Positions 1-63,155 of a DNA stretch of 64,000 nt are shown here, in pieces (within the stretch, counting starts at the first letter, position 1; each line of letters opens with the position of its first letter). Origin of the DNA: Desulfobia sp. (GTDB taxonomy: Bacteria; Desulfobacterota; Desulfobulbia; Desulfobulbales; SURF-16); contig JAWOFO010000043.1 in the NCBI GenBank assembly GCA_046497465.1, forward strand, positions 14,966-78,965, given 5' to 3'. Position numbers and translations under genes: made by a program. The notes beneath the pieces were generated by a model, which was not told the DNA's origin, ran no database searches, and saw only the letters and a program-made list of their open reading frames with translations.

Positions 1-221
1 TCTGCCCCATACTCCCTGATAAGACGCCGCGCCTCATCCATGCCCCGTTCAAGAAAAGGGAAGAAAAGTATTTCCGAACCAATGTGACCTCCGTAACGAA
101 AAATTTTATCTATCGAGGATGTAGTGAAACCGGGATAACGACGCTCTTTCTCCTCATTTTCAATATAGGTGACAAGGTCTGCCGGCGTGCAGATCAAGGT
201 CGGGCTTGTCACGAGGGCCAT
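1..221 (-). CDS. hypothetical protein; the C-terminus lies beyond the window edge and only the first 73 codons are visible
   Basis: The minus-strand frame is open from ATG at 221-219 to position 1 (MALVTSPTLICTPADLVTYIENEEKERRYPGF...). The start overlaps the TGA of the upstream 209-859 ORF by 13 nt, which looks operon-like. No family recognised. Confidence 0.35.
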   Translation of the reverse strand, partial: MALVTSPTLICTPADLVTYIENEEKERRYPGFTTSSIDKIFRYGGHIGSEILFFPFLERGMDEARRLIREYGA

Positions 222-859
222 TCCGCCTTAACCCGGGTTATTATCTTTTCAATAAGAGGCAGTTTATCCGGAGGACAGACACCTATAAGAAGATCACCCC
301 GTTCAACCGTGACTCCGGGTTTAAAATAAACGGAATGAATAAGTCCTGGTGCACCTGTATAATATATCGGAGTATCCCTTTTCATCAGAGACATGGTAAA
401 TATCTCATCTCCCTCCTTAACAGATACGGAACGCTGTCCGAATTTCTCAATACGGGACTGTATATCAAGGGCAAAAAAGTACTTAGCTCGTTCCGGGGCC
501 CTGAAAAGAATAAGGACATTACGGAGAATCAGTTCAATAATCTCCATTTTTTTCAAAGGATGGCGGATGGTAATTATTTTTTCCCCGGCCTCGATAAACC
601 GACCTTCCAGTTCCCGGGCAACAAAGGAAACCACCCCGCTTGAAGGCGATAAAATAGGCTTGACATTACGTTCCCTGACAATATCACCCAGATGGGTCCC
701 TGGAATATGGTGCCATTTGCCGCTGAGTCCTTTGACCTCATTCCCCGGACTTACATGAAAATAAATCTCGCCGGTATGCTGGGAATAAAGATCAATATAA
801 CCGTAAGGATCATCCCGGTATCTGCTGAGAATTTTTTCGTAATCTATAGATTCAGACAT
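209..859 (-). CDS. biotin/lipoyl-attachment (BCCP-like) protein
   Basis: 216 aa. The C-terminal half resembles a biotinyl domain (GDEIFTMSLMKRDTPIYY...GDLLIGV, with SLMK where BCCP has EAMK). It lies directly downstream of the carboxyltransferase and biotin carboxylase genes on the same strand. Confidence 0.6.
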   Translation of the reverse strand: MSESIDYEKILSRYRDDPYGYIDLYSQHTGEIYFHVSPGNEVKGLSGKWHHIPGTHLGDIVRERNVKPILSPSSGVVSFVARELEGRFIEAGEKIITIRHPLKKMEIIELILRNVLILFRAPERAKYFFALDIQSRIEKFGQRSVSVKEGDEIFTMSLMKRDTPIYYTGAPGLIHSVYFKPGVTVERGDLLIGVCPPDKLPLIEKIITRVKAEWPS

Positions 860-875
860 ATTATGAATTATGTGA

Positions 876-3137
876 TTACCTGTAATATAAACTGGACCCG
901 CCCATAGTCATGAGGGCTTTATGGAGATTTACCCGAAACTCCCTTCTGTCCCAGATTCCATGGATATGGCCTCTTCTCAGGGCATTTCTGACACTGTGAT
1001 AATCAGGAGGTATATCCTCTCCAGTGGTATCCCTGATGACGCGGGGGCCGGCAAAACCTATCCTGCTTGACCGGATGGCAAACTGGTAGTGGGAACATCC
1101 AAGAAAACTGGCCACCGGTCCGGCATAAGAATTATTATCATAAACCACAATGTAGAGTCCGCCGGAATCCACATATTCCCTTACAGCCATAGTACATTTC
1201 GGCATCTGTACCACGCCGATGGTTCCTTCCTGGATACGGATACCACCGGTGGAATGGACATAGGCCAGCAGGGGCCGCCGTTTCAACATGGCCAGATCAC
1301 AGGCCCGGACAAACTTTTCACCTTCTGCCGATCCTACAGTACCGTTACGGAAATCACTGTAGAGAATAGCTACCACCAGCTCAATTCCCATAACCTTGGC
1401 CTCAAAGGTAATTATAGCGCTGTTGCGGCGGGTCCTTTCCTTGGCCTCCTGCAACCTCTTTTCAAAACCGGGTGATTGCAGAGGATTGCCCGAGGTAATT
1501 TCCCGGTTAAACTCACACACCGATCCCTGATCGAACAGGTGGGAAATATACCAGTGATATTCCAACGGAAAATGATGTCCGCAGTTTTCACAGACCCCGC
1601 AGAACTCTCCGTAAAGATCCGGTACCCACAGGTCGAGGCAGCCGTATTTTTCCGCTCTGGGACAGGTTATAGTGCGGTCTTCATTGGCCAGAGGACTGGT
1701 ATAAGTTTCTCCCAGTTCAGTTACCGCACTCCGGGAAATACTGTTACTGACAACAGGTTTTACCTCATCGCCTTTATCTTCACCTATACGGGCCAGAAAA
1801 TCATAAGCAGAAACCAGGGCACCGGAAATATGCTTCCAAAGCATTGACCCTTCTCCGGAGACATCCCTGATCACATGTCTGACCTGTTTCTGCTTACTGC
1901 GGAATAAATCATACCTCAGATTATAGTAAAAACTGTGAACTCCCTTCTGAAATCTCCGCCATTTAAGCTCCAGAGGGGACAGCTCTCCTCCGAAACCGGC
2001 AGTGGCAAGTTTACGGTATCTCTGGGAGCGAAGCTGAACTATTCTTTTAATTTCTCTCCGGTTGAGCTCCCAAGATAACTGCATCCTCTGCTCGTCAGCA
2101 CTCTCTTCCTCGTGTTTCCTCAATTTAACCGCATAAACCCGGAAAACCCGAAAGCTTTTGGCACTCAAAACTACTTCATCAGTGGCCCGGATCATCTCGA
2201 ACCTGAGCTTTTTAAAAAAGGCAAAATCATCCCGCCGGGCTCCCAGAACCGGCTCTTCTATGATCCGGTCGATATTGCCCAGTTCCAGATTATCCCGGGC
2301 AGTTATCTTCAGCCTGGCAGCACAGTCCTCAACAAGACCCCTTGGTATTTTATTACCTTCCCTGATCTTGCCTTCAATCGCTGCCGCTCCCTCAGGTGAA
2401 ATGACTGAATAGTAGCCGTGAGAAAACATCAAGCGGTAATCAGACAGGCCTATTGCTTCAGCCCCTCCTGATCCTCCCTCGGAGATCACCGAGATAATAG
2501 GGACTTTAAGTTTGGTCATGGTATAAAGATTGGCGGCAATCTGCTGAGCCGCCCCGGGATATTCTTCTATCGGAAAAGAACCAGGTGTAAATATATAGGA
2601 ATGGATTGGAATACCCTCGGTCTGGGCAACCTGCATAAAATGAAGGGCCTTGGCATTTCCCCAGGGTTTACTGGAACCGCCGTTACGATATTCTTCGCCA
2701 TGGCCTTTTTCATGTCCTATGACCATAACCTGCTGGGTATAGGAGCGATCCTTGACCCTTCTAATAATTGTGGCCTTGGCACAGACCATGGACGGATCAA
2801 TATTGGCTTCTTCCTCTCCCCCCAGTTCAGTATAATCCTCATAAACATTTTCCAGAATATCCTGGAGACTGAAACGAAGAGGACTACGTACAATGCTGAC
2901 CCTTTCCATGGGAGTCAGACTCTCTTCACAGCGTTGTTCAAGAAAACTTATACCATCTTCCAGGGTCCTTACTTCCTGTCTCAACTTCCTTTTGGAGAAG
3001 TCATACAGGCTATTATAGATATATCTCTGTTTATCCTGGAGCTGAACGAGGTTACCCCATTGCAGATCACCCTTGATCTGAATCAGATAATCGATCCGTT
3101 CTGCAGCTCTCAAAAGTCTTTTTCGTATATCTTCCAT
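876..3137 (-). CDS. acetyl-CoA-carboxylase-type carboxyltransferase; single polypeptide with an AccA-like N-terminal part and an AccD-like C-terminal part
   Basis: 753 aa. AccA-like block: VMVIGHEKGH...FIFTPGSFP...VISEGGSGGAEAIG...SVISPEGAAAIE. AccD-like block includes a Cys4 zinc ribbon (CPRAEKYGC...CENCGHHF) and GGIRIQEG. Confidence 0.8.
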   Translation of the reverse strand: MEDIRKRLLRAAERIDYLIQIKGDLQWGNLVQLQDKQRYIYNSLYDFSKRKLRQEVRTLEDGISFLEQRCEESLTPMERVSIVRSPLRFSLQDILENVYEDYTELGGEEEANIDPSMVCAKATIIRRVKDRSYTQQVMVIGHEKGHGEEYRNGGSSKPWGNAKALHFMQVAQTEGIPIHSYIFTPGSFPIEEYPGAAQQIAANLYTMTKLKVPIISVISEGGSGGAEAIGLSDYRLMFSHGYYSVISPEGAAAIEGKIREGNKIPRGLVEDCAARLKITARDNLELGNIDRIIEEPVLGARRDDFAFFKKLRFEMIRATDEVVLSAKSFRVFRVYAVKLRKHEEESADEQRMQLSWELNRREIKRIVQLRSQRYRKLATAGFGGELSPLELKWRRFQKGVHSFYYNLRYDLFRSKQKQVRHVIRDVSGEGSMLWKHISGALVSAYDFLARIGEDKGDEVKPVVSNSISRSAVTELGETYTSPLANEDRTITCPRAEKYGCLDLWVPDLYGEFCGVCENCGHHFPLEYHWYISHLFDQGSVCEFNREITSGNPLQSPGFEKRLQEAKERTRRNSAIITFEAKVMGIELVVAILYSDFRNGTVGSAEGEKFVRACDLAMLKRRPLLAYVHSTGGIRIQEGTIGVVQMPKCTMAVREYVDSGGLYIVVYDNNSYAGPVASFLGCSHYQFAIRSSRIGFAGPRVIRDTTGEDIPPDYHSVRNALRRGHIHGIWDRREFRVNLHKALMTMGGSSLYYR

Positions 3138-4555
3138 TAGAAAGTGAGCAGGTTGTCAATATTTTTCCGAAGGTAATCGATATTGGTCTGGATAGGCTCC
3201 CCTGCTCCGTTACTACCCATTATTTCTATCTCTGCTAAAAACTGGCGGCCCCTTTCCTTAGCACGATCCATAGATTCTCCCCAGACCACAACCAGTGCCA
3301 GGTTGGGATCATAGTCACTGGGTACCAGGTAAGGGCGGTCACAGGGTACATGGGTGTAAACTGCAGCCCAGTCAGCATCGGGAAAAGAAAAGCAGGAAAT
3401 AGTCCCTATCCAGGGGACAAAACCCTTATCAGGATTTTCCGCCACAATACGAAACTCTATGCTGGCACCGCGGAAATCTATGTGCTTTTGACTGTAACCA
3501 AGCTTATCTCCCAGAGCAAGTCTTATCTGCTCCTGTATCAGATTGGGCTGCCTGTTGTTGATATAACTTATCCTGGCGGAGACATCATTTTCCACTTGGA
3601 TTCTGGTGTTAACCTCGAGCAGATAGGGTTGGCCGTCACGACTGACAATCCACTCCCAGGTTCCCAGACTATCGTATTGCACATAATCAGCCAATTTCAG
3701 AGAATAGGCAATAATCTTCTCCAGTACCCGCTTGGCATCAAAGTCATAAGAAAAACAACTGCTGTCAAAACCGGGAGCCACTTCCAGCCTCTTCTGTCTT
3801 CCAGTACTCTGAATAGTACAGTTTCTGGTGCCGAAATGGACCCTTTCTCCGTGCTTGCTGCAGACCATTTGGACCTCGATATGATTGTAATCTCTAAGGC
3901 ACTGTTCAATAAGAACCCCGCCATCCCCAAACTGACGCTTGGCATAATTGGTTATCCGGCGGTAGGTCCGCCGGAACTGTTCAAGCTGAAAGACCTCTTC
4001 AATACCCATACCTCCGCCGCCGGCAGCAGCCTTGACAAGGATCGACGGCCTGTTTATTCCCTGATTGCGCTGAGCAGTCACCAGGCTATTAGCTATGACT
4101 TCGGCATCGAGTTCGTTGTAGATAGGTTCAGATGTTCCGGGAATAGTAGGTATATCCAACTGTTCGGCAATCTTTTTAGTATTGATTTTATCACCCAGGT
4201 CCTTGATAACTTCCCATTTAGGTCCAATAAAAGTTAAAGATCGATTTCTTGTGGTTACCCGTCTGGCAAACCTATAGTCTTCGGAAAAAAAACCGTAACC
4301 CGGATGAATTGCTGTACAGCCGGTATAATCTGCCACTGCGAGCAGATCATTAGGATCGGTGTAGCTGGCGACTTTCCATGCCTTTTTCTCTTCCCCTTCT
4401 TCATGTAGATAAGGATAGACATGTTCAGACTCTTTATCACCTTCGGTGTATATTACCACATAATCCAGACCCAATTGCCGACAGGCTCCGGCAATACGGA
4501 TGGATATCTCCCCCCGGTTGGCAATCAGGATCTTCTGTTTACGCTTTAAAACCAT
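3137..4555 (-). CDS. accC: biotin carboxylase
   Basis: 472 aa with ATP-grasp biotin carboxylase motifs (KILIANRGEISIRI, AAGGGGMGI, LEVNTRIQVE). Its stop overlaps the start of the carboxyltransferase gene. Confidence 0.9.
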   Translation of the reverse strand: MVLKRKQKILIANRGEISIRIAGACRQLGLDYVVIYTEGDKESEHVYPYLHEEGEEKKAWKVASYTDPNDLLAVADYTGCTAIHPGYGFFSEDYRFARRVTTRNRSLTFIGPKWEVIKDLGDKINTKKIAEQLDIPTIPGTSEPIYNELDAEVIANSLVTAQRNQGINRPSILVKAAAGGGGMGIEEVFQLEQFRRTYRRITNYAKRQFGDGGVLIEQCLRDYNHIEVQMVCSKHGERVHFGTRNCTIQSTGRQKRLEVAPGFDSSCFSYDFDAKRVLEKIIAYSLKLADYVQYDSLGTWEWIVSRDGQPYLLEVNTRIQVENDVSARISYINNRQPNLIQEQIRLALGDKLGYSQKHIDFRGASIEFRIVAENPDKGFVPWIGTISCFSFPDADWAAVYTHVPCDRPYLVPSDYDPNLALVVVWGESMDRAKERGRQFLAEIEIMGSNGAGEPIQTNIDYLRKNIDNLLTF

Positions 4556-4754: not shown

Positions 4755-4784
4755 CTCAACCTTTCGACTTGAGAAAACTATTAT
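4755..4784 (-). mobile_element. family-A repeat; left fragment of a short copy split by insertion of the 4785-5067 copy
   Basis: CTCAACCTTTCGACTTGAGAAAACTATTAT matches the first 30 nt of the intact short copy at 16751 (CTCAACTTTCCGGCTTGAGAAAACTATTAC). Confidence 0.8.
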
Positions 4785-5067
4785 CTCAACTTTCCGACTT
4801 AATTTATCTATATGATACGACGTGAAAATTTCCCGTCAAACAGTGGAGTTTAGCGGTTGATATGTCTGTTCAGGAACATTGTGCAGTGTTTGTTAGTGGC
4901 TTTTGGCGAAGCGAAACGTTAAAAATTTCAACTGCCTGAGCGAGGCACGAGCGAATTTTGAAATTTTAGTGAAGCGAGCCTTAGAGCCACTCAAACACGA
5001 AGCCGTTCCTGAATGGACATGCCAACCTCATAAAATCCTGCTGTTTTTTTTAAGCCGGAAAGCTGAG
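4785..5067 (+). mobile_element. family-A MITE-like palindromic element, full-length copy A1 (283 bp); + means the long arm comes first
   Basis: Imperfect terminal inverted repeats CTCAACTTTCCGACTTAA / TTAAGCCGGAAAGCTGAG. Internal inverted repeat GTCTGTTCAGGAAC / GTTCCTGAATGGAC flanks a palindromic core of about 127 nt. Near-identical copies lie at 7349, 36041 and 62877. CTATTAT occurs on both flanks (4778-4784 and 5068-5074). Confidence 0.9.
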
Positions 5068-5090
5068 CTATTATGATTTCAGCTATCAAC
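5068..5090 (-). mobile_element. family-A repeat; right fragment of the disrupted short copy (degenerate beyond about 5082)
   Basis: CTATTATGATTTCAG continues the arm sequence ...AAACTATTA(T/C)GATTTCAGACGG seen at 16776-16793, 42108-42127 and 62897-62916. Confidence 0.6.
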
Positions 5091-7348: not shown

Positions 7349-7631
7349 CTCAACTTTCCTACTTAAGAAAAATAGCAGGATTTCATGAGGTTGGCATGTC
7401 TATTCAGGAACGGCTTCGTGTTTAAGTGGCTCTAAGGCTCGCTTCACTAAAATTTCAAAACTCGCTCGTACCTCGCTCAGACAGTTGAAATTTTTAACGT
7501 TTCGCTTCGCCAAAAGCCACTAACAAACACTGCACAATGTTCCTGAATAGACATATCCACCGCTAAATACCACTGTCTGACGGGAGATTTTCACGTTATA
7601 TCATATAAATAAATTAAGTCGGAAAGTTGAG
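7349..7631 (-). mobile_element. family-A element, full-length copy A2 (283 bp, inverted relative to A1)
   Basis: Its reverse complement aligns end to end with 4785-5067 and 36041-36323. It sits between the lnt stop and the prfB start. Flanked by TAATAA on both sides (7343-7348 and 7632-7637). Confidence 0.9.
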
Positions 7632-7699
7632 TAATAACTCTTTAACAGGAAATTATCCATAAATTCCAAAACTCACTTTTTAATGATTGAGGGAAAAAC

Positions 7700-8795
7700 A
7701 TGTCAGCAGAGCTTAAACAAAAAATTCAGGATATCCGGGATAGGCTGCTAGCCCTGAAGGAGCATCTTTGAATTATCTGATAAAGAAGAAAAACTGAAAA
7801 GGCTTGAAGCTGCCACCAGGCAACCCGGTTTCTGGAATAAGATTGATGAAGCGAAAAAGATCAATCAGGAGATCAGCAGGATCAAGGAAACCTTAGAGAA
7901 CTGGAACTCATTTCACAGCCATCTGGAAGACAGCGAGACCCTCCTGGAACTTGCTCTGGAAGAAGACGACCCAAATACCGTCAAAGAGGCTGAGACAGCC
8001 ATCAATAACCTGGAAAAACAGCTATCTTCTTTTGAGTTGAACTGTATGTTCACCGGCGAGCATGATGCCAATAATGCCATCCTGGCGATCAACGCCGGCG
8101 CTGGCGGGACCGAGGCTCAGGACTGGGTGGAAATACTGATGCGAATGTATCTCCGCTGGTCTGAAAACAAAGGGTTTAAGACGGATATACTCGATTATCT
8201 CCCCGGTGACGAGGCAGGTATAAAAGGAGTAACCATAATGGTCAAAGGGCATAATGGCTACGGACACCTGCGCTCAGAAATCGGTATTCATCGTTTGGTG
8301 CGTATTTCACCTTTTGATGCGGGAGGCCGCCGTCACACCTCATTCGCTTCTGTTTTCGTTTTCCCGGAACTGGACGATAGTATAAAAGTTGATATAAATG
8401 AGAAAGACTTGCGTATAGATACTTACAGGGCAAGCGGCGCTGGAGGCCAGCATGTCAACAAGACAAGTTCAGCCATCCGTATTACTCATATCCCTACCAA
8501 CATCGTAGTGCAATGCCAGAATGAACGTTCCCAGCACAGGAATAAAGACATGGCCCTGAAAATGTTAAAGGCCAGACTTTATGAAAAAGAACGGGAGGTC
8601 CAGCAGGAACAGCACCAGGAGCTTAAAGGTGAAAAAAAAAATATAGCCTGGGGGAGTCAGATCAGATCTTATATAATGCAGCCCTATCAGCTCATTAAGG
8701 ACCACCGCACCAACTTTGAAACAGGCAAAGTGGATCATGTCCTCAATGGGGATCTTGATCCTTTTATTAAAGAGTACCTGCTCTGGCAGAGCTGA
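7700..8795 (+). CDS. prfB: peptide chain release factor 2, requiring a programmed +1 frameshift at 7766-7771
   Basis: Frame 0 reads ATG 7700 ... AAG GAG CAT CTT TGA (stop at 7769-7771). The +1 frame from GAA 7770 (ELSDKEEKLKRLEAATRQPGFWN...) is in frame with track ORF 8037-8795, which carries the RF2 SPF and GGQ motifs (VRISPFDA, GAGGQHVNKT). Confidence 0.92.
7757..7772 (+). promoter_or_regulatory. prfB +1 frameshift site: internal SD-like AAGGAG, 3-nt spacer, slippery CTT, in-frame TGA
   Basis: AAGGAG CAT CTT TGA A has the same geometry as the E. coli prfB site AGGGGG TAT CTT TGA C. Confidence 0.85.
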
Positions 8796-8846: not shown

Positions 8847-8939
8847 TTCAACTTTCCGGATTGATTTATCTGTATGATATAACGTGTATATTTTTAGTGA
8901 GGCAGGGGTATTTGACGGTTGGTATGTTTATTCAGGAAC
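8847..8939 (+). mobile_element. family-A repeat, half element (one arm only, ending exactly at the TTCAGGAAC motif)
   Basis: TTCAACTTTCCGGATTGATTTATCTGTATGATATAACGTG...GACGGTTGGTATGTTTATTCAGGAAC is the reverse complement of the right arm of the copy at 42088-42234. Confidence 0.8.
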
Positions 8940-8964
8940 AGCGACTTAATAAATCCCTTTGCTG

Positions 8965-11004: not shown

Positions 11005-11094
11005 TTCAACCAGTATCTTTCTAAAAACCTGTATGATATAACTCGCAAACTTTTTAGTGAAATCATAATAGTTTTCTCAAGTCGAAAAGTTGAG
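11005..11094 (+). mobile_element. family-A repeat, minimal copy of about 90 bp (degenerate left terminus)
   Basis: ...CTGTATGATATAACTCGCAAACTTTTTAGTGAAATCATAATAGTTTTCTCAAGTCGAAAAGTTGAG joins the two arm ends directly, with no core. Confidence 0.7.
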
Positions 11095-11302: not shown

Positions 11303-11356
11303 ACGTGCAAATTTTTTAGTTATATCATAATAGTTTTCTCAAGCCGGAAAGTTGAA
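11303..11356 (+). mobile_element. family-A repeat, partial copy (right end only)
   Basis: ACGTGCAAATTTTTTAGTTATATCATAATAGTTTTCTCAAGCCGGAAAGTTGAA ends 21 nt before the ATG at 11378. Confidence 0.7.
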
Positions 11357-16750: not shown

Positions 16751-16875
16751 CTCAACTTTCCGGCTTGAGAAAACTATTACGATTTCAGACGGTTGGCATG
16801 TTTATCAAGTACTCTTGCCTCACTAAAAAATTTGCAAGTTATATCATACCAGATAAATCAATCCGGAAAGTTGAA
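16751..16875 (-). mobile_element. family-A repeat, intact short copy (125 bp) with an 8-9 bp direct flank duplication
   Basis: CTCAACTTTCCGGCTTGAGAAAACTATTACGATTTCAGACGGTTGGCATG...ATAAATCAATCCGGAAAGTTGAA. TTATCTAA occurs at 16743-16750 and again at 16876-16883. Confidence 0.85.
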
Positions 16876-30080: not shown

Positions 30081-30225
30081 GTCTTCAGCAGTCAGCGAAA
30101 AGCGCTTAGCTCAAGTCTCATGTACCCCTTTTCCTGCTGATTGCTGAAGACTGTTTGGCACATTTTTAAAGACGAACAGATATGGGGAAACCTCGAGTTC
30201 GGGTTTCCTTATCTCGAGGAGTGCC

Positions 30226-30287
30226 GTTCCTGAATGACTATACCAACCGTCTGAAATCATAATAGTTTTCTCAACTGTAGAGTAGAG
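30226..30287 (+). mobile_element. family-A repeat, half element starting at the GTTCCTGAA motif, with a degenerate terminus
   Basis: GTTCCTGAATGACTATACCAACCGTCTGAAATCATAATAGTTTTCTCAAC is the reverse complement of the left arm of the 16751 and 42088 copies. Confidence 0.7.
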
Positions 30288-33479: not shown

Positions 33480-34694
33480 TCAACTTTTCAGGCCTGCATA
33501 GAGAAAATAGCGGAAAAATTCTTCACCGTTTGCAAATCGCAGGCCGGAAACTTCCCCATTCCTTTCAGAAAAAGTAAGACCATTATCCCTCTCCTGTTTT
33601 CCGGAATCAAAAAGGGCGAAAGCTACCGGATGAGAGGTGTGAGTCTTGAGACTCACCGGGGTAAGATGATCCATGCAGACCATAATACGGCAACCATGGC
33701 CTGTATTCTCCAGTATCGGCTTAACCACCTGCCTATCAAAAGCCTCTATCGCCTTGATCTTGTCATCTATTGACCCCTGATGACCGGTTTCGTCAGGGGC
33801 CTCAATATGGAGAAAAACAAAATCATCATTTTCCAGGGCCTTAAGAGCAGCAGAGACCTTCCCTTGATAATTGGTATCAAGATAACCGGTGGCTCCTTTA
33901 ATGTCAGGGGCGTTAAGTCCCGCATAGACAGCTATGCCCTTGAGCAGATCAACGGCAGATATAAGGGTCCCACTGATCCCGTATTTCTCCCTGAGTGTCG
34001 ACATAGCAGGAGAAACCCCCTCACCCCAAAGCCATACTCCATTGGCAGGCAGAAGACCTGCCTCCTGCCGTTTCCGGTTAACAGGATGGGTAGCCAAAAC
34101 AGACCTGCTGGCCTCCATGAACTCATTTATCTCTGGAACTGTCCGATATCCACGCCAGAGTTCATCTACATACTGACCGGTATAGTCATGGGGGGGAAAG
34201 GTATTCAGCCCTGTTATCTTTCCGCGGTAGACCAAAAGATGACGATAACTGACCCCGGGATACAACTTAATTTTTTCATTACCGAACCGCCTCTCCAGTT
34301 CGCCTATAAGCTCTGCCGCCTCTGCTGTACTGATATGGCCGCCGCAATAGTCCTGCATCAGCAAGCCGTCCGGATCATTTTTCAAGGTCACCAGATTACA
34401 GCGAAAGGAGATCTCCCCGTCCCGCAGTTCAACTCCCAAACTGGCCGCTTCCAGAGGAGAACGGCCACTGTAGAACTCTTCGGGGCGATAACCGAGAAGT
34501 GAAAGATTGGCCACATCACTGCCCGGAGAAAAACCTGCGGGAATGGTCTGTACCAGTCCTAACTGCCCGTGGCCGGCAATGTAATCCATAGCAGGAGTAT
34601 CTGCAGCTTCCAGGGGGGTTCTGTTCCCCAATTCCGGCAAAGGAAAATCTCCCATGCCGTCTCCTACTAATACTATGAATTTAGACTTACTCAT
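33480..34694 (-). CDS. ApgM-family (archaeal-type cofactor-independent phosphoglycerate mutase-like) metalloenzyme
   Basis: MSKSKFIVLVGDGMGD..., HIEAPDETGHQG. The start is reassigned to ATG 34694, which overlaps the hom stop by 8 nt. The track ORF extends to 34796 inside hom. Confidence 0.8.
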   Translation of the reverse strand: MSKSKFIVLVGDGMGDFPLPELGNRTPLEAADTPAMDYIAGHGQLGLVQTIPAGFSPGSDVANLSLLGYRPEEFYSGRSPLEAASLGVELRDGEISFRCNLVTLKNDPDGLLMQDYCGGHISTAEAAELIGELERRFGNEKIKLYPGVSYRHLLVYRGKITGLNTFPPHDYTGQYVDELWRGYRTVPEINEFMEASRSVLATHPVNRKRQEAGLLPANGVWLWGEGVSPAMSTLREKYGISGTLISAVDLLKGIAVYAGLNAPDIKGATGYLDTNYQGKVSAALKALENDDFVFLHIEAPDETGHQGSIDDKIKAIEAFDRQVVKPILENTGHGCRIMVCMDHLTPVSLKTHTSHPVAFALFDSGKQERDNGLTFSERNGEVSGLRFANGEEFFRYFLYAGLKS

Positions 34695-35997
34695 GCTTCT
34701 CCACCAGTATCCTGATTTTAACAGCCTTATCAGTGGTGATATCCAGACTGTCAATCTCGGCCAGGGCCTTATTGACAGACTCTTCACTGGCTTCATAAGT
34801 AGACATGACTATAGGAACAGAATCCTCTGTCTCACTGCCTTTCTGGATAACCGATTCTATACTTATACCGTTATCGCCAAGGATACCGGCTATACGAGAC
34901 AAGACTTTTGTTTTATCCAGGGTGCTGAACCTTATATAAAAGGGGCAACGAAGGTTGGCCATGGGACTAATTTGTCTATCTTTGATATACTCAGGCAAAT
35001 AAGACAGACTCGGCACCCGGTTGATAAAACCTGACATAATATTACGGGAAATATCTATAATATCTGCCACCACGGCGCTGCCGGTAGCCATCATTCCAGC
35101 TCCATGGCCGTATAGGAGGATATTCCCCACCATATCCCCGCTGAAACAGACCCCGTTATAGGTGCCGTTTATACTGGCCAGCATATGTTCCTTAGGGACA
35201 AGAGTGGGATGAACCCTGGCTTCGACATGGTCGCCATAATTATGGCTGATCGCCAGAAGTTTAAGACGGTATCCCATTTCCTTGGCATAGTCGATATCAA
35301 TAGGCTCCAGGCGGCTGATACCTTCACAGGTAACATCGGCAAGGTCCATCTTCATACCATAGGCCATGGACATAAGAATAACCAGCTTATGAGCCGTATC
35401 TATTCCCTCTATGTCATAGCCGGGATCAGCCTCGGCATAACCCTTATCCTGAGCCTCCTGAAGTGCTTCACTGAATAAAAGACCATAATCCGACATCTTA
35501 CTAAGGATATAATTGGCTGTCCCGTTCAGTATGCCTATGATAGAATCAATCCGGTTGGCAACCAATCCCTCTTTAAGTGATTTGATGATGGGTATGCCTC
35601 CCCCGACACTGGCTTCAAAACCTATTTCCACATTCTTTTCTGCAGCAAGGACAAATATCTCCGTCCCATGCTGGGAAAGGAGGGCCTTATTGGCAGTCAC
35701 TACATGCTTGCCGTTTTCAATAGCCTTCAGGATGTATGTCCGGGCAAGTGTAGTCCCGCCGATGAGCTCCACCACAATATCGATTGCCGGATCATCAAGA
35801 ATATCATTGGCATCCCTGGTCAGGGTTATCCCCTCAAGATGGGAAGGTAAACTCTCTACATTGATGTCGGCAACGGCCTTAAGCAAAACATGGCCGCCTC
35901 CCCGTCTTTTCAAACGGTCAGCCTGCTCATAAAGGACGCGGGCAGTCCCCCGGCCCACGGTTCCAAAACCTATTAAGCCTATTTTAACATCTCGCAT
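34687..35997 (-). CDS. hom: homoserine dehydrogenase with a C-terminal ACT domain
   Basis: 436 aa with IGLIGFGTVGRG and VTANKALL. Confidence 0.9.
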   Translation of the reverse strand: MRDVKIGLIGFGTVGRGTARVLYEQADRLKRRGGGHVLLKAVADINVESLPSHLEGITLTRDANDILDDPAIDIVVELIGGTTLARTYILKAIENGKHVVTANKALLSQHGTEIFVLAAEKNVEIGFEASVGGGIPIIKSLKEGLVANRIDSIIGILNGTANYILSKMSDYGLLFSEALQEAQDKGYAEADPGYDIEGIDTAHKLVILMSMAYGMKMDLADVTCEGISRLEPIDIDYAKEMGYRLKLLAISHNYGDHVEARVHPTLVPKEHMLASINGTYNGVCFSGDMVGNILLYGHGAGMMATGSAVVADIIDISRNIMSGFINRVPSLSYLPEYIKDRQISPMANLRCPFYIRFSTLDKTKVLSRIAGILGDNGISIESVIQKGSETEDSVPIVMSTYEASEESVNKALAEIDSLDITTDKAVKIRILVEKHE

Positions 35998-36040
35998 AAA
36001 AGTCCTGTTACGGTTGTTTATTTATCAGTATTGCAATAAT

Positions 36041-36323
36041 CTCAACTTTCCGGCTTAATTTATTTATATGATATAACGTGAAAATCTCCCGTCAGACAGT
36101 GGTATTTAGCGGTGGATATGTCTATTCAGGAACATTGTGCAGTGTTTGCTAGTGGTTTTTGGCGAAGCGAAACGTTAAAAATTTCAACTGTCTGAGCGAG
36201 GTACGAGCGAGTTTTGCAATTTTAGTGAAGCGAGCCTTAGAGCCACTCAAACACGAAGCCGTTCCTGAATAGACATGCCAACCTCATGAAATCCTGCTAT
36301 TTTTCTTAAGTCGGAAAGTTGAG
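36041..36323 (+). mobile_element. family-A element, full-length copy A3 (283 bp)
   Basis: Collinear with 4785-5067, with 6 mismatches in the 127-nt core. It lies between the hom start and the stop of the mqnB-like gene. Confidence 0.9.
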
Positions 36324-36340
36324 AATAAACGTTTACAGAT

Positions 36341-37033
36341 TCAGCAGGAAGATTTCAGCAAGTCAAGTACCAGGCTGCACATGTAACGTCCTCCAAGATC
36401 ACAGGCCTCGTTAATACGCCACTTCCTGCCGCTAACCCGGTCTTCCACCATATTACTAATAGTGCGCAGTTCAAGAAAATCGACAACAAATCCCGTGCAG
36501 ACCCGGGCCAGGGCAGCCCCTTCCATATTCTCACAAAGAGCCTGATGTTTATCCCGGAAAAATTCACCCCTTGAGGCAGTGCCGCTGGCACAATTCAGGG
36601 TGACAAAGCCCCCCTCCCGAAAAGGGATCTTTTCTTCGGTCAGTAAGTGGACTGCCCTTTTAAAAATAGACTGGCTGTTAAGCCTGAAATCCTGCTTTAT
36701 ATCCAGGATTGGATCAGCCGGTACATTAACAACCCCGGAGTCGCATACTCCCAGATCAGCTATAACTTCCCTGGTGGCCAGACAAAAATCGAGAATATCA
36801 ATACCGGTTCCCGGATATGCCCCTCCAATTCCAAAATTAATAACTCCGGAAGGCAGGTTTTCATGCTGCTCCGCTAGATAGCGGCAGAGATTATAAGCGG
36901 CCTCAACAGGTCCCACTCCGCAACGCAGTAGTGCTAAACGGGGAATACCATCTAATTCACGCCGGATAAATGACAGTTCTTTGTCAGTGGAGGCAACGAG
37001 GAGGTAGTTATCCTTCATCCTTGACAGACCCAC
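36341..37033 (-). CDS. mqnB: futalosine hydrolase-like nucleosidase (PNP/UDP family)
   Basis: 230 aa with CGVGPVEAAY, FGIGGAY and ENMEGAALA, typical of MTA/SAH-nucleosidase/MqnB proteins. The subfamily assignment is tentative. Confidence 0.55.
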   Translation of the reverse strand: MGLSRMKDNYLLVASTDKELSFIRRELDGIPRLALLRCGVGPVEAAYNLCRYLAEQHENLPSGVINFGIGGAYPGTGIDILDFCLATREVIADLGVCDSGVVNVPADPILDIKQDFRLNSQSIFKRAVHLLTEEKIPFREGGFVTLNCASGTASRGEFFRDKHQALCENMEGAALARVCTGFVVDFLELRTISNMVEDRVSGRKWRINEACDLGGRYMCSLVLDLLKSSC

Positions 37034-37050
37034 TTTACCATAATGTGCCT

Positions 37051-37425
37051 TCAGTTACGATTAAAGAGATTATCCCCGTTTTTTATACGATTATTACTGT
37101 CAAGAGTTACAAGTTTTGGCTCATATACCTTTAAAGCCTCCCTAGAATAAAGACCGAAACTCACTATAATAATCAAGTCCCCGACAAGTCCTTTCCTGGC
37201 TGCTGCTCCGTTTAAGCCTATAACACCGGAACCCGCCGGTCCCTCAATGGCGTAGGTATCAAACCGGGCGCCATTGTTAATATTGTAAACCTTGACATGT
37301 TCATAAGGATAGAGATCAACTGCTGCCAGCAAATCGCTGTCAATAGTAATACTTCCTTCATACATCAGTTCAGAATGGGTGATCGTGGCTTGATGTATTT
37401 TGGATTTAAGCATTTTGCGCATCAT
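37051..37425 (-). CDS. panD: aspartate 1-decarboxylase
   Basis: 124 aa with MLKSKIHQATIT and the self-processing YEGSITID site. Confidence 0.92.
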   Translation of the reverse strand: MMRKMLKSKIHQATITHSELMYEGSITIDSDLLAAVDLYPYEHVKVYNINNGARFDTYAIEGPAGSGVIGLNGAAARKGLVGDLIIIVSFGLYSREALKVYEPKLVTLDSNNRIKNGDNLFNRN

Positions 37426-37463
37426 GAATCTGTTTAACTCCGACTTTCATTTTCCACTGCCCG

Positions 37464-38309
37464 CTACCTGAGCAGTAACCTGTTATCAATCAATCTGACC
37501 CCGTCAACTTTCACAGCAAGGGCCATAAGTGAATTATCATCTATTGTCCGGGATTTCTCCAGATTATCCTTGTCAACGATATCAGCATACTCCACCTCCA
37601 CCCCGCCATACTCATCCAACCTCTTTCTAACCACATCTTCAAGCCCCCGAGCTTCTGTCACTCCTGCCCTGGCCTGTTGTGCCGCAAATTCCAAAGCATT
37701 AAAAAGGCCAAGGGCCTTCCTTCGTCCCTGTTCATCAAGATAACTGTTCCGCGAGCTGAGAGCCAATCCACTGCTTTCCCTGACTATCGGATGCCCGACT
37801 ATTTCAATATCCCAGTTAAGATCTGTAACCATCCTTCTTATTACTGCCAACTGTTGAAAATCCTTTTCTCCAAAAACAGCAACCTGCGGTTTTACCAGAT
37901 TAAACAGCTTGGCCACTACTGTGGTTACCCCGTCAAAATGGCCGGGACGACGTGCACCGCACAAGGGATCAGTAAGAGAGGCGACCTTGACTTCGGTCTG
38001 AAACCCCGGAGGATAAAGTTCATCCTGATCGGGGATAAAAAGGACCTTAACCCCCGTCTCCCGGGCCAAACGGATGTCTCTTTTATGATCCCGGGGATAG
38101 TTGGCAAAATCTTCCCCGGGACCGAATTGTCTGGGATTAACAAACAGGGATACAACCAGATTGTCTGCAAGCTTGCCGCCTTGCCGCATCAGGGCCAGAT
38201 GGCCTTCATGGAAGAACCCCATAGTGGGTACCAGGCAGATAATTTCCTTATTATTCAGCCGGCTGTTAGACCACTCAACCATGGCGCGGCAGGACTCTAT
38301 AATCTTCAT
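37464..38309 (-). CDS. panC: pantoate-beta-alanine ligase
   Basis: 281 aa with PTMGFFHEGHLALM and FGEKDFQQ. Confidence 0.92.
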   Translation of the reverse strand: MKIIESCRAMVEWSNSRLNNKEIICLVPTMGFFHEGHLALMRQGGKLADNLVVSLFVNPRQFGPGEDFANYPRDHKRDIRLARETGVKVLFIPDQDELYPPGFQTEVKVASLTDPLCGARRPGHFDGVTTVVAKLFNLVKPQVAVFGEKDFQQLAVIRRMVTDLNWDIEIVGHPIVRESSGLALSSRNSYLDEQGRRKALGLFNALEFAAQQARAGVTEARGLEDVVRKRLDEYGGVEVEYADIVDKDNLEKSRTIDDNSLMALAVKVDGVRLIDNRLLLR

Positions 38310-39366: not shown

Positions 39367-40770
39367 ATGATTTTAACAGATTACAGCACAAAAATACAAA
39401 GTGTCACCGAGCTGAGCCGTTCCATTCGCGGTCTTCTGGAAACAGAATTTCCTTTTGTTTCTGTCAGAGGTGAAATTTCCAACCTGAAAAAACCATATTC
39501 CGGTCATATCTACTGCACCCTTAAAGACCAGGGCGCCCAGATAAGAACCGTGCTTTTCAAATCCCAGCAGCGCTGGCTCTCCTTTACCCCGGAAGAAGGG
39601 ATAGGGGTGATCTGCAGGGGACGTCTATCAGTATATGAACCCAGAGGTGAATACCAAATTATTGTAGATACTCTGGAAAAAGAAGGGGCCGGCCAACTAC
39701 AGATCGCCTTTGAAGAACTGAAAAAAAAACTGGAGGCCGAGGGCCTCTTTTCTGCAACCCGTAAAAAAGAACTTCCGTTTTTTCCTGAAAAAATATCACT
39801 GATCACCTCACCCCATGGTGCAGCACTGTATGATTTTCTGCGACTTGCCCGGCAGCGTTTTCCGGGAGCGTCCATCGACATATTTCCAGTCAAAGTCCAG
39901 GGCGATGGCGCAGCCCGGGAAATAATAACAGCCCTTGAACTCTTAAACAAAAGAGCAGTAAACAACAAGGATGCCGCAGACCAGGTTATCGTTCTCTGCC
40001 GGGGCGGAGGGTCCATTGAAGATTTATGGACTTTTAATGAAGAAAAACTGGCCCGGGCAATTACCGCTTCTGCCATACCTGTAATCTCTGCTGTTGGACA
40101 TGAAATTGACTTCACCATTGCCGACTTTGCAGCTGATCACAGGTCCGCCACCCCGACAGCCGCAGCCCGGGAAATTCTGCCTAACAGATCAGTCTTAAAA
40201 CAGGACCTGCTGAAACTAAAAAAAAGATCGACTACTGCCGTCATCCGGAAAATTGAGACCCTTAGACAGCATCTGCTTTTTCAGCGCAGACGGCTTGGCG
40301 ACCCTCTTTCCCTGCTCAGCCATTTTAGCCTCCGGCTTGACAATCTCCACTCAAAACTGAATACAGGAATCAAAACTTTTATAAACTACAAGAGGTACCG
40401 CTATCACGGGGTACTCTCCAGATTTAAGGGACAAAAACCAGACGTTCAGATCGCCCGCCAAAAAATGGAACTCAGAGCAAAGACAGAAAGGCTGACCATC
40501 TTTATGCAGCGACAACTCGAAAACAAAATAAACCGACTAGCCTGTACAGCCTCCCGACTGGAGTCGGTAAGCCCTCTTGCTGTTCTGGAAAGAGGGTATG
40601 CAATAGTCCGCAAACTCCCCGGCCGTGAAGTTATTAATGACAGCAGACAAATAAAAAAAGGAGACAGAATTGAGATCAAGCTGCATAAAGGACTAATTAA
40701 AGGCAGATTAACCGGAATAACTAAGTATAATGAAAATCAGGGCACAGATACTAAGGAGCAACTGAAATGA
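39367..40770 (+). CDS. xseA: exodeoxyribonuclease VII large subunit
   Basis: 467 aa with an OB-fold N-terminus (VSVRGEISNLKKPYSGHIYCTLKD), RGGGSIEDLW and a coiled-coil tail. Confidence 0.9.
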   Translation: MILTDYSTKIQSVTELSRSIRGLLETEFPFVSVRGEISNLKKPYSGHIYCTLKDQGAQIRTVLFKSQQRWLSFTPEEGIGVICRGRLSVYEPRGEYQIIVDTLEKEGAGQLQIAFEELKKKLEAEGLFSATRKKELPFFPEKISLITSPHGAALYDFLRLARQRFPGASIDIFPVKVQGDGAAREIITALELLNKRAVNNKDAADQVIVLCRGGGSIEDLWTFNEEKLARAITASAIPVISAVGHEIDFTIADFAADHRSATPTAAAREILPNRSVLKQDLLKLKKRSTTAVIRKIETLRQHLLFQRRRLGDPLSLLSHFSLRLDNLHSKLNTGIKTFINYKRYRYHGVLSRFKGQKPDVQIARQKMELRAKTERLTIFMQRQLENKINRLACTASRLESVSPLAVLERGYAIVRKLPGREVINDSRQIKKGDRIEIKLHKGLIKGRLTGITKYNENQGTDTKEQLK

Positions 40771-42087: not shown

Positions 42088-42234
42088 CTCAACTTTCCGG
42101 CTTAAGAGAACTGTTATGATTTCAGACGGTCGGTACAGCCGTTCCTGAATAAACATACCAACCGTCAAGTATCCCTGCCTCACTAAAAAATTTGTACGTT
42201 ATATCATACAAATAAATCAATCCGGAAAGTTGAA
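42088..42234 (-). mobile_element. family-A repeat, intact short copy (147 bp) inside the hdrA-mvhD intergenic spacer
   Basis: CTCAACTTTCCGGCTTAAGAGAACTGTTATGATTTCAGACGGTCGGTACAGCCGTTCCTGAATAAACATACCAACCGTC...AATCCGGAAAGTTGAA fills most of the 178-nt gap between the two genes. Confidence 0.85.
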
Positions 42235-62876: not shown

Positions 62877-63155
62877 CTCAACTTTCCGATTTGAGTAAAC
62901 TATTATGATTTCAGACGGTTGGTATAACCATTCAGGAACAGTTTCGTGTTTGAGTGGCTCTAAGGCTCACTTCACTAAAATTTCAAAACTCGCTCGTACC
63001 TCGCTCAGGCAGTTGAAATTTTTAACGTTTCGCTTCGCCAAAAGCCACTAACAAACACTGCACAATGTTCCTAGACATATCGACCGCTAAACACCACTGT
63101 CTGACGGGAAATTTTCACGTCGTATCATACAGATAAATTAAGCGGGAAAGTTGAG
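62877..63155 (-). mobile_element. family-A element, full-length copy A4 (279 bp; chimeric left arm of the short-copy type)
   Basis: The left arm CTCAACTTTCCGATTTGAGTAAACTATTATGATTTCAGACGGTTGG matches the short copies. The core and right arm match A2. It lies between hypD and hypE. Confidence 0.9.

What the first reader, a model, noticed from the sequence alone, without database searches (positions are those of the whole stretch)
36041..36323. Four near-identical elements of about 283 bp with three nested levels of dyad symmetry and a 127-nt AGCGA-rich core
The copies lie at 4785-5067 (+), 7349-7631 (-), 36041-36323 (+) and 62877-63155 (-). Each has outer TIRs (CTCAACTTTCCGR / YCGGAAAGTTGAG) and an inner inverted repeat of about 22 bp (GGTGGATATGTCTATTCAGGAAC / GTTCCTGAATAGACATGCCAACC). 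Each also has a core that is itself an imperfect palindrome with arms of about 45 nt (GTGTTTG.TAGTGG.TTTTGGCGAAGCGAAACGTTAAAAATTTCAA versus TTG.AATTTTAGTGAAGCGAGCCTTAGAGCCACTCAAACAC). The core carries AGCGA four times and differs at only about 5 percent of positions between copies, by my hand alignment. The short family members (16751, 42088, 11005) lack the core, so it looks like a separately acquired module. There is no credible ORF. At least 11 family members in 64 kb is a very high density. Transcribed copies would fold into long hairpins of more than 100 nt, so effects on termination, RNase III processing or mRNA stability are plausible, as recalled for Neisseria Correia elements. I do not recognise this family.
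Basis: seen in the sequence. Interest (0 to 1): 0.65.

Follow-up and report, generated by a model that had tools for sequence, protein, structure and literature searches.

The report
New high-copy MITE family in Desulfobulbales
The four 283-bp repeats are copies of a previously undescribed miniature transposable element, present in tens of copies in an uncultured sulfate-reducing bacterium, and are ordinary in kind except for a well conserved centre flanked by a stem that keeps its pairing while its sequence changes.

Summary
Four 283-bp (one 279-bp) copies lie at the stated coordinates, 88-98% identical, with 18-22-bp terminal inverted repeats, a 23-bp inner inverted repeat and a 127-nt core carrying AGCGA four times on one strand. 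The third level of dyad symmetry, the core as a palindrome, is not above chance.

It is a MITE: a non-coding, non-autonomous cut/copy-and-paste element.
- Copy 4785-5067 is inserted into the right arm of an older family member. Removing it and one 7-bp duplication restores that arm.
- Two short members have perfect 8-bp target duplications.
- All members are intergenic.
- Relatives with about 85% identical proteins have an empty site upstream of hom.
- Metagenome depth indicates tens of copies per genome.

The host is GTDB genus JAWLDV01 (family SURF-16, also called Seep-DBB; Desulfobulbales). Nothing matched in Rfam, the plasmid or phage collections, the genome, metagenome or viral collections, or the literature. 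No transposase partner was found.

Short members look like internal-deletion derivatives, so the core as a separately acquired module is not shown. However, across copies and metagenomes the core is the most conserved part, and the inner stem shows 4-5 compensatory changes between subfamilies. Element sequence occurs in metatranscriptome assemblies, and one contig joins a copy to the prfB leader.

Verdict: a new member of a known kind, of modest interest.

The parts
36041..36323 (+). Full-length 283-bp element (the finding). It lies between the stop of the PNP_UDP_1 (futalosine-hydrolase-like) gene at 36341 and the start of hom at 35997, both on the - strand.
   Evidence: The same locus is 99.98% identical in GCA_041686435.1. 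The intergenic space is 343 bp here and 77-132 bp in relatives with 85% identical proteins, which lack the element.
36041..36058 (+). Left terminal inverted repeat (CTCAACTTTCCGGCTTAA).
36306..36323 (+). Right terminal inverted repeat (TTAAGTCGGAAAGTTGAG).
36111..36133 (+). Left arm of the inner inverted repeat. Its inner 10 nt (ATTCAGGAAC) are invariant in all types; its outer 14 nt differ between subfamilies with matching changes on the partner arm.
36261..36283 (+). Right arm of the inner inverted repeat.
36134..36260 (+). 127-nt core. It is the most conserved and most deeply covered part of the family and carries AGCGA at 36166, 36195, 36206 and 36229 on this strand only. Its own fold is not better than chance.
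4785..5067 (+). Full copy, inserted into an older family fragment. The 7-bp target duplication CTATTAT lies at 4778-4784 and 5068-5074.
4755..4784 (-). Distal 30 nt (including the terminal repeat) of the right arm of an older short-type member, split by the insertion at 4785-5067.
   Evidence: The reconstructed arm matches the fragment at 11057-11094 at 40 of 41 aligned columns.
5068..5082 (-). Proximal part (CTGAAATCATAATAG) of the same older right arm, on the other side of the insertion.
7349..7631 (-). Full copy, 69 nt upstream of the prfB start codon (7701). It is flanked by TTATTA on both sides. A metatranscriptome contig runs from 7524 to 7733 without a mismatch.
62877..63155 (-). 279-bp hybrid copy: long-type left arm and core joined to a short-type right arm, with no target duplication.
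16751..16875 (-). Complete short member (125 bp, no core) with a perfect 8-bp target duplication TTAGATAA.
42088..42234 (-). Complete short member (147 bp, no core), ending 3 nt from the stop of the 935-aa gene.
8848..8942 (+). Left-half fragment of a short-type member.
11057..11094 (+). Right-end fragment.
11322..11355 (+). Terminal fragment.
30223..30285 (+). Right-arm fragment of a short-type member.

Best explanation
The 283-bp repeats are a family of miniature inverted-repeat transposable elements (MITEs): non-coding, non-autonomous derivatives of a DDE-type insertion sequence. A transposase encoded elsewhere in the genome (not in this window, not identified) is inferred to bind the 18-22-bp terminal inverted repeats. 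It inserts the element into A/T-rich intergenic DNA with a staggered cut that leaves a 6-8-bp target duplication.

The host is an uncultured sulfate reducer of GTDB genus JAWLDV01 (family SURF-16, also called Seep-DBB; order Desulfobulbales). The family has amplified to tens of copies per genome and exists as several subfamilies. The 283-bp form amplified recently. The short forms are older and are mostly internal-deletion derivatives. Copies also recombine with each other, giving hybrid arms and, possibly, rearranged flanks.

When a copy lies inside a transcription unit it is transcribed passively, and the RNA can fold into one long hairpin. Any effect on processing or stability of the neighbouring mRNA is inferred, not shown.

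The central 127 nt and the complementarity of the inner stem are maintained more strictly than the rest. I take this to mean they matter in cis for propagation of the element, for example as a folded or protein-bound form during transposition, or that hairpin-templated repair homogenises the arms. This last step is inference.
For: Mobility is shown directly:
- Deleting 4785-5067 plus one copy of CTATTAT restores an uninterrupted short-type right arm, CTGAAATCATAATAGTTTTCTCAAGTCGAAAGGTTGAG, which matches other members at 34-40 of 38-41 aligned columns.
- There are perfect 8-bp duplications at 16751-16875 (TTAGATAA) and at the short copy L092:10427-10584 (ATATAAAT). Copy 7349 has 6 bp, and copy 36041 has 5 of 6.

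Other MITE features:
- Terminal repeats are far above chance.
- There is no conserved ORF and no protein match.
- All 10 loci are intergenic among housekeeping genes whose order is conserved in relatives.
- The orthologous PNP-hom spacer is 77-132 bp without the element in relatives with 85% identical proteins. A profile finds no member in 1.34 Mb of other Desulfobacterota loci.

Copy number and spread:
- In run X1 the flanks have depth 10-14 and the element 330-1070. In X3 the figures are about 4 against 76-136, and in X14 about 3 against 54-244.
- Short-read contigs break inside the element.

History of the copies:
- Deletion origin of short forms: many different joints, some retaining core edges.
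- Recombination: copy 62877 has a short-type right arm and no duplication. The core is uniformly 94.5-96.9% identical while the arms range from 71 to 99%.

Host identity.
Against: - No autonomous partner with the same terminal repeats was found, so the transposase family is unknown. The window has no transposase, and the public collections gave no relative.
- The target-duplication length varies from 6 to 8 bp, and one full copy has none.
- In a purely selfish MITE one expects the termini, not the centre, to be the best conserved part. Here the core is the most conserved part across subfamilies and species, and the inner stem covaries. This leaves room for a function beyond mobility.
Confidence: 0.82

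Rival explanations
1. The element, or at least its 127-nt core with the flanking covarying stem, is a functional structured RNA (or single-stranded DNA) module spread by the MITE frame. It would act on neighbouring genes as a processing or stability hairpin, a protein-binding site (AGCGA repeats in internal loops) or a source of transcription.
For: - The core is the most conserved part. It is 94.5-96.9% identical where the arms are 71-99%, and depth peaks at 36201-36240 in every run.
- The type-X subfamily shares the core at about 97-98% identity, but the outer 14 bp of its inner stem differs at 7-8 positions per arm.
- 4 pairs (5 if pair 14/39, which passes through U-G, is counted) changed on both sides with pairing kept; 1 of 500 shuffles reaches this.
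- AGCGA occurs 4 times on one strand only.
- The forward strand folds 18 kcal/mol better than the reverse because of G-U pairs. One-sided changes keep G-U on the forward strand in 13 columns, against 4 A-C columns.
- Element sequence is in metatranscriptomes, and one perfect contig joins copy 7349 to the prfB leader while the upstream lnt gene has depth 0.
Against: - No Rfam match, even at E <= 10.
- The core alone has no fold better than chance.
- No compensatory change among the four window copies.
- Copies lie in both orientations relative to neighbouring genes.
- AGCGA is not invariant: 36170 A>G is common.
- The covariation rests on one contig whose sequence I reconstructed from a table. 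It can also arise from repair within a DNA hairpin.
- The RNA data are unstranded contigs, and multi-copy DNA carry-over cannot be excluded.
- The promoter-like site is at chance level.
Confidence: 0.1
2. The core is a second, independent small mobile element that inserted into the loop of a short MITE, after which the composite amplified.
For: - Short members lack the core.
- The core combines with at least three different arm types.
- A further insertion of about 47 nt at 36171 exists in a subfamily, so the centre does accept insertions.
Against: - No target duplication at the core or inner-repeat boundaries (reading).
- No solo core in the window.
- No loose ends at 36134 or 36260 among those listed.
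- No short member has the precise 36133/36261 junction, and several keep core edges.
- The core has weak dyad symmetry and no terminal repeats of its own.
Confidence: 0.06
3. The repeats are recombination sites or host-maintained palindromes rather than transposons. Candidates are integron attC sites, because the termini CTCAAC...GTTGAG fit the RYYYAAC/GTTRRRY boxes and attC sites conserve structure rather than sequence, or REP/REPIN-type elements moved by a Y1 (RAYT) enzyme.
For: - The termini fit the attC core motifs at 6 of 7 positions (the attC consensus is from my own knowledge).
- The stem pairing is conserved while the sequence changes.
Against: - Perfect 7- and 8-bp target duplications and a nested insertion. 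Neither attC recombination nor RAYT-type movement produces these.
- Copies lie singly, in both orientations, between conserved housekeeping genes. They do not form a one-directional cassette array.
- At 283 bp the element is far longer than attC (57-141 bp) or REP (20-40 nt) sites.
Confidence: 0.02

Closest known systems
Correia elements (CREE/NEMIS) of Neisseria
   Same: Both are small, non-coding, bounded by terminal inverted repeats, present at high copy and intergenic. Both are often co-transcribed with neighbours into hairpin RNAs, and both have full-length and internally deleted size classes. The Correia features are from my own knowledge; the features of this family are.
   Different: There is no sequence similarity. 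The target duplication is 6-8 bp and A/T-rich here, not TA. This element is about twice as long, at 283 bp against 100-155 bp. No IHF site, RNase III cleavage or outward promoter has been shown. The host phylum is different.
REPINs (REP doublets mobilised by RAYT transposases)
   Same: Both are hairpin-forming miniature mobile DNA in which stem pairing is preserved by compensatory changes (here; REPIN behaviour is from my own knowledge of Bertels and Rainey 2011).
   Different: REPINs have no terminal inverted repeats of the IS type and make no target duplication. Here 7-8-bp duplications are clear. No RAYT gene was seen.
ERIC/IRU and BOX elements of enterobacteria and pneumococci
   Same: Both are modular intergenic repeats with a conserved central region, size variants caused by internal insertions or deletions at particular points, and transcription with neighbouring genes (from my own knowledge). 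Here there are deletion variants and a subfamily with an insertion of about 47 nt at 36171.
   Different: There is no sequence similarity and no Rfam hit. This family has clear evidence of recent transposition and target duplications.
Integron attC sites
   Same: The terminal motifs resemble RYYYAAC / GTTRRRY, and both are imperfect palindromes in which structure is conserved more than sequence.
   Different: This family makes target duplications, shows a nested insertion, has scattered copies in both orientations, sits in no cassette array and is twice the maximal attC length.

Membership tests
MITE (non-autonomous DDE-transposon derivative) | Terminal inverted repeats at sharp element boundaries | tested here: met
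   The arms are 18-22 bp and 91% complementary, and similarity between copies stops exactly there. The motif occurs 16 times against 1.8 expected.
MITE (non-autonomous DDE-transposon derivative) | Direct duplication of the target site | tested here: met
   The 7-bp CTATTAT duplication comes with a reconstructed empty site. There are perfect 8-bp duplications at 16751-16875 and in the short copy in L092, and 6 bp at copy 7349. One hybrid copy has none.
MITE (non-autonomous DDE-transposon derivative) | Small size and no coding capacity | tested here: met
   Members are 125-283 bp. The longest ORF is 37-57 aa, is not conserved, and has a stop codon in copy 62877. There is no protein in 5.8 billion clusters matching any of the six frames.
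MITE (non-autonomous DDE-transposon derivative) | Many dispersed copies, with filled and empty sites | tested here: met
   There are 10 loci in 64 kb. Depth is about 20-80 times that of the flanks in three metagenomes. The site upstream of hom is empty in relatives.
MITE (non-autonomous DDE-transposon derivative) | An autonomous IS with the same terminal repeats that supplies the transposase | not testable with these tools
   There is no transposase in the window, and the rest of the genome is not readable here. Collection scans found no relative. ISfinder is not available.
Correia element (Neisseria) | Family-specific 26-bp terminal repeat, TA target duplication, IHF site | tested here: not met
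   The terminal repeats and the 6-8-bp duplication differ. The Correia consensus is recalled from my own knowledge and was not aligned.
Any Rfam RNA family | Score at or above the family's gathering threshold | tested here: not met
   There are 0 hits in the whole window. At E <= 10 the only hit is a spurious one of 12 bits.
Integron attC site | Position at the 3' end of cassettes in a one-directional array next to intI; insertion without target duplication | tested here: not met
   Copies lie in both orientations between housekeeping genes, and target duplications are present.
REP/REPIN (RAYT-mobilised) | 20-40-nt palindromes or doublets, no IS-type terminal repeats, no target duplication | tested here: not met
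   Terminal repeats and target duplications are present, and the element is 283 bp long.

The most novel reading that the evidence does not exclude
The conserved 127-nt AGCGA-bearing core, held at the tip of a stem whose pairing is kept through compensatory changes, is a strand-specific functional module: a structured RNA or a protein-binding single-stranded element. The MITE frame would distribute it to dozens of intergenic sites, coupling many housekeeping operons (hom, prfB and others) to one regulator or RNase in this halophilic sulfate reducer.
Probability: 0.1. Interest if true: 0.6.

Novelty: new member of a known kind. Interest (0 to 1): 0.3.

Why it matters
**Practical:** this repeat fragments short-read assemblies of the SURF-16/Seep-DBB lineage. 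Contigs end inside it, and one MAG contig carries a different flank at a copy. Knowing its sequence helps in assembling and curating genomes of a group now discussed as a partner of methane-oxidising archaea.

**Biological:** it adds a MITE family from a poorly sampled phylum, with direct evidence of recent transposition and of recombination between copies. Its centre is better conserved than its arms, and one stem covaries. If that reflects function, it would be a case of a mobile element spreading a structured module through housekeeping operons. If not, it is a clean example of concerted evolution of palindrome arms.

Tried and rejected
**Known families and collections**
- Known RNA family: Rfam gave nothing at gathering threshold on 64 kb or at E <= 10 on the element.
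- Known plasmid or phage sequence: blastn of the whole element found nothing. A 62-nt end query gave only chance hits, none at IS ends.
- Relatives in public collections:
  - Core 28-mer and 25-mer: 0 hits in the genome, metagenome and viral collections.
  - Terminal 22-mer: one chance hit inside an unrelated sequence and 0 viral hits.
- Literature: no paper contains the terminal or core strings in a relevant context, and none links MITEs to this lineage.

**Attempts to find more copies or the transposase**
- Recovering more copies through mis-called ORFs: six exact look-ups and a six-frame pseudo-protein search both returned nothing.
- Finding the transposase: there is none among the window's ORFs or next to the copy in L092.

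**Alternative readings of the element**
- Coding core: rejected. It has a TTG start, no conservation, and a stop codon in one copy.
- Nested MITE-in-MITE origin of the three symmetry levels: there are no duplications at the inner boundaries and no solo inner units.
- Promoter or terminator carried by the element: one conserved CTGACG-16-TATCAT site points out over the left end, but this equals the chance expectation. No terminator was found.
- Hammerhead-like or sigma-54-like motifs in the core: I checked these by eye and the spacing does not fit.

**Tests that did not work**
- Simple half-against-half alignment to count G-T versus A-C mismatches: the arms are offset, so the alignment was not usable.
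- Strand bias of wobble-preserving changes: suggestive (13 columns against 4; 7 against 1 in the X1 variants) but not significant once unpaired sites are used as control.

Full report
**1. The observation**

The sequence at 36041-36323 is as described. Aligning the four stated intervals with 20-nt flanks gives 91% mean column identity. Similarity starts and stops exactly at CTCAACTTTCC and GGAAAGTTGAG. BLAST and a profile HMM of the four copies recover them at full length, 88-98% identical. They also recover two complete short members (16751-16875, 42088-42234) and four fragments (8848-8942, 11057-11094, 11322-11355, 30223-30285).

The terminal 11-mer occurs 16 times with at most one mismatch, against 1.8 expected. 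The extra hit at 40247 lies inside the xseA gene and is chance.

The repeat finder gives three relevant results:
- an outer inverted repeat of 22 nt, 91% complementary;
- an inner one of 23 nt, 87% complementary, separated by exactly 127 nt;
- short direct repeats, AGTGGTATTTAGCG / AGTGGTTTTTGGCG and TTTTGGCGAAGCGA / TTTTAGTGAAGCGA.

AGCGA occurs four times in the core on one strand and never on the other, with 0.06 expected. The core differs by 3-5.5% between copies.

The whole element folds into one hairpin of 96 predicted pairs, z = -6.9 on the + strand and -5.2 on the - strand.

The claimed third level of symmetry does not hold up. The core alone folds no better than shuffles as RNA on either strand or as DNA. 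Its self-complementarity score lies within the shuffle distribution.

**2. Where it is and whose genome this is**

All neighbours are housekeeping genes: biotin carboxylase, lnt, prfB, an iron-dependent repressor, adk, panC, panD, a PNP_UDP_1 nucleosidase, hom, xseA and a purM-like gene. There is no transposase in the window. All family members are intergenic.

The hom locus is 99.98% identical to contig JAWLDV010000081.1 of GCA_041686435.1. JAWLDV01 is the GTDB genus name used for a halophilic member of family SURF-16 (Seep-DBB), order Desulfobulbales, in a 2026 preprint on the Orca Basin (10.64898/2026.02.09.704686). The best species representatives in the genome collection reach only 64% identity for Hom.

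**3. It moves, and how**

The decisive case is copy 4785-5067. Its two flanks are the two halves of the right arm of an older, short-type family member. Removing the 283 bp and one copy of CTATTAT gives CTGAAATCATAATAGTTTTCTCAAGTCGAAAGGTTGAG. This matches other members' right arms at 34-40 of 38-41 aligned columns. It is a nested insertion with a 7-bp target duplication and a known pre-insertion sequence.

Other target duplications:
- The short member at 16751-16875 has a perfect 8-bp duplication, TTAGATAA.
- A further short member just outside the window (L092:10427-10584) has ATATAAAT on both sides.
- Copy 7349 has TTATTA on both sides, and copy 36041 has AATAAT / AATAAA.

Targets are A/T-rich.

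In relatives whose Hom is 85% identical, gene order is the same, but the PNP-hom spacer is 77-132 bp without the element, against 343 bp here. A profile search of 1.34 Mb from other Desulfobacterota, including about 55 kb from those relatives, finds no member.

Terminal inverted repeats, staggered-cut duplications, small size, lack of coding capacity, high copy number and filled/empty sites together define a MITE. The one defining feature I could not test is the autonomous partner. Which IS family supplies the transposase is therefore unknown.

**4. Copy number and spread**

Depth of the element against its flanks in three metagenomes:

| Run | Organism in the run | Flank or gene depth | Element depth |
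|---|---|---|---|
| X1 | same species | 10-14 | 330-1070 (about 55-fold) |
| X3 | same species, genes identical | about 4 | 76-136 |
| X14 (salt lake) | relative, genes about 90% identical | 2-5 | 54-244 |

A brine run (X16) holds a more distant relative, with genes 81-87% identical, and one core-bearing contig at single-copy depth.

Short-read contigs of three assemblies end inside the element. The family is therefore neither confined to the window nor to one species. It was absent from the genome, JGI-metagenome, viral, plasmid and phage collections as searched.

**5. History of the parts**

*Short members.* They do not share one junction. The window copies and the metagenome contigs show at least a dozen different internal joints, skipping 99-207 nt. 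Some short forms keep core edges. The L092 short copy retains CACGAAGCC, the last 9 nt of the core. An RNA contig retains its first 28 nt. None shows a clean loss of exactly the 127 nt. This fits internal deletion of longer elements better than acquisition of the core by a short one.

*Evidence that the core has its own history:*
- Copy 62877 joins a long-type left arm and core to a short-type right arm and has no target duplication. That is expected after recombination between two copies.
- Core identity is flat at 94.5-96.9%, whether the arms are 99% or 71% identical.
- In every run, depth is highest over 36201-36240 and lowest over the left arm. Many copies therefore have arms less than 85% like this one but a core that still matches.
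- A subfamily I call type X is dominant in X14, present in the X16 contig and at about 10-15% in X1.
  - Left arm: CAGATGGTGTGCCC|ATTCAGGAAC.
  - Right arm: GTTCCTGAAT|GGGTACACCATCTG.
  - Pairing: 23 of 24 Watson-Crick pairs.
  - Window type for comparison: CGGTGGATATGTCT / AGACATGCCAACCT.
  - Its core differs from the window consensus at only about 2-4 of 127 positions.

*Covariation.* Counting pairs on an alignment of the three distinct window versions and the X16 version gives 4 pairs changed on both sides with pairing kept. A fifth pair passes through a U-G intermediate. Only 1 of 500 shuffles is as high, and slid controls collapse. The X16 row was reconstructed by me from the difference table, and it is a single contig. 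Among the four window copies alone there is no compensatory change.

*Further variation.* A subfamily with an insertion of about 47 nt at 36171 also exists.

**6. Transcription**

Element words are in several metatranscriptome assemblies; run X6 holds 93% of them. One X6 contig matches 7524-7733 without a mismatch. It joins the interior of copy 7349 to the unique prfB leader (prfB ATG at 7701), at the same depth as a prfB contig. The upstream lnt gene has depth 0. The contig stops at the first base where copies differ, so its end is an assembly break and not an RNA end.

This indicates that at least this copy is part of an mRNA leader. Three limits apply:
- the data are unstranded contigs;
- per-copy depth is low;
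- carry-over of multi-copy DNA cannot be excluded.

One conserved promoter-like site points outward over the left end, toward hom and toward prfB in those two copies. Such a site is expected by chance in a stretch of this size. No terminator-like site was found. Copies lie in both orientations relative to neighbouring genes.

**7. Interpretation**

The best explanation is a new MITE family (confidence about 0.8). It is mobilised in trans, was recently active, recombines between copies, and is passively transcribed into long hairpins.

The unexpectedly conserved centre and the covarying inner stem have three possible causes:
- a cis requirement for transposition;
- repair within an extruded DNA hairpin that keeps the arms complementary;
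- a host-level RNA function.

I give the third about 0.1. Readings as attC or REPIN elements are excluded by the target duplications.

**8. Novelty and score**

I found no description of this family, but ISfinder and Dfam could not be searched. In kind it is a MITE, comparable to Correia, ERIC or REPIN elements in behaviour without belonging to any of them. Interest is modest (0.3). It is useful for assembling and annotating SURF-16/Seep-DBB genomes, and the core and stem conservation is worth a proper test once closed genomes and stranded RNA data are at hand.

Noticed in passing
window 7701-8795: prfB (RF2) has the classical programmed +1 frameshift. The ATG is at 7701, then ...AGG AGC ATC TTT GAA..., with CTT TGA at 7767-7772 preceded by a Shine-Dalgarno-like AGGAGC. 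The rest of the protein continues in the +1 frame (PCRF and RF-1 domains).
   Followed up: partly
L092 (JAWLDV010000020.1) 1-3877 versus window 5068 onward: In the public MAG, the copy corresponding to 4785-5067 has the same acc-side flank as the window. On the other side it is followed by a hypothetical gene, cobD and feoB instead of lnt, and the sequence diverges right at the element end. This is either a real rearrangement by recombination between copies or a chimeric assembly across the repeat.
   Followed up: partly
window 11352: A metatranscriptome contig (X6, 161 nt) starts exactly at 11352, inside the terminal-repeat remnant at 11346-11356. It is preceded by an Illumina adapter sequence (GACGTGTGCTCTTCCGATCT), so this is a genuine cDNA fragment end. 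It could be a transcript start or a cleavage site at a MITE end, but it is a single contig.
   Followed up: no
window 36171 (and the equivalent place in other copies): In four metagenomes, a subset of copies carries an extra insertion of about 47 nt right after the first AGCGA (TGGATGATTCGTCAC...ACCGGAGGTACGGTC). None of the window copies has it.
   Followed up: no
window 36067/36275 joint, seen in runs X6 and X3: A very short family variant, joining the first 27 nt to the last 49 nt, is the element-related contig with the highest depth (21.9) in the metatranscriptome X6. It may sit in a highly expressed transcript.
   Followed up: no
window 33480-38309 and loci L086, L090: The gene order panC-panD-PNP_UDP_1 nucleosidase-hom-apgM-thioesterase is conserved with relatives that have 85% identical proteins. 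The hom and apgM-like ORFs overlap in all of them.
   Followed up: partly
window 36098-36111, 36151-36164, 36157-36170, 36220-36233: A motif AGTGGT(A/T)TTT(A/G)GCG recurs as direct repeats in the left arm and in the core, and TTTT(G/A)G(C/T)GAAGCGA occurs twice 63 nt apart. This suggests stepwise internal duplications or repeated protein-binding sites.
   Followed up: no
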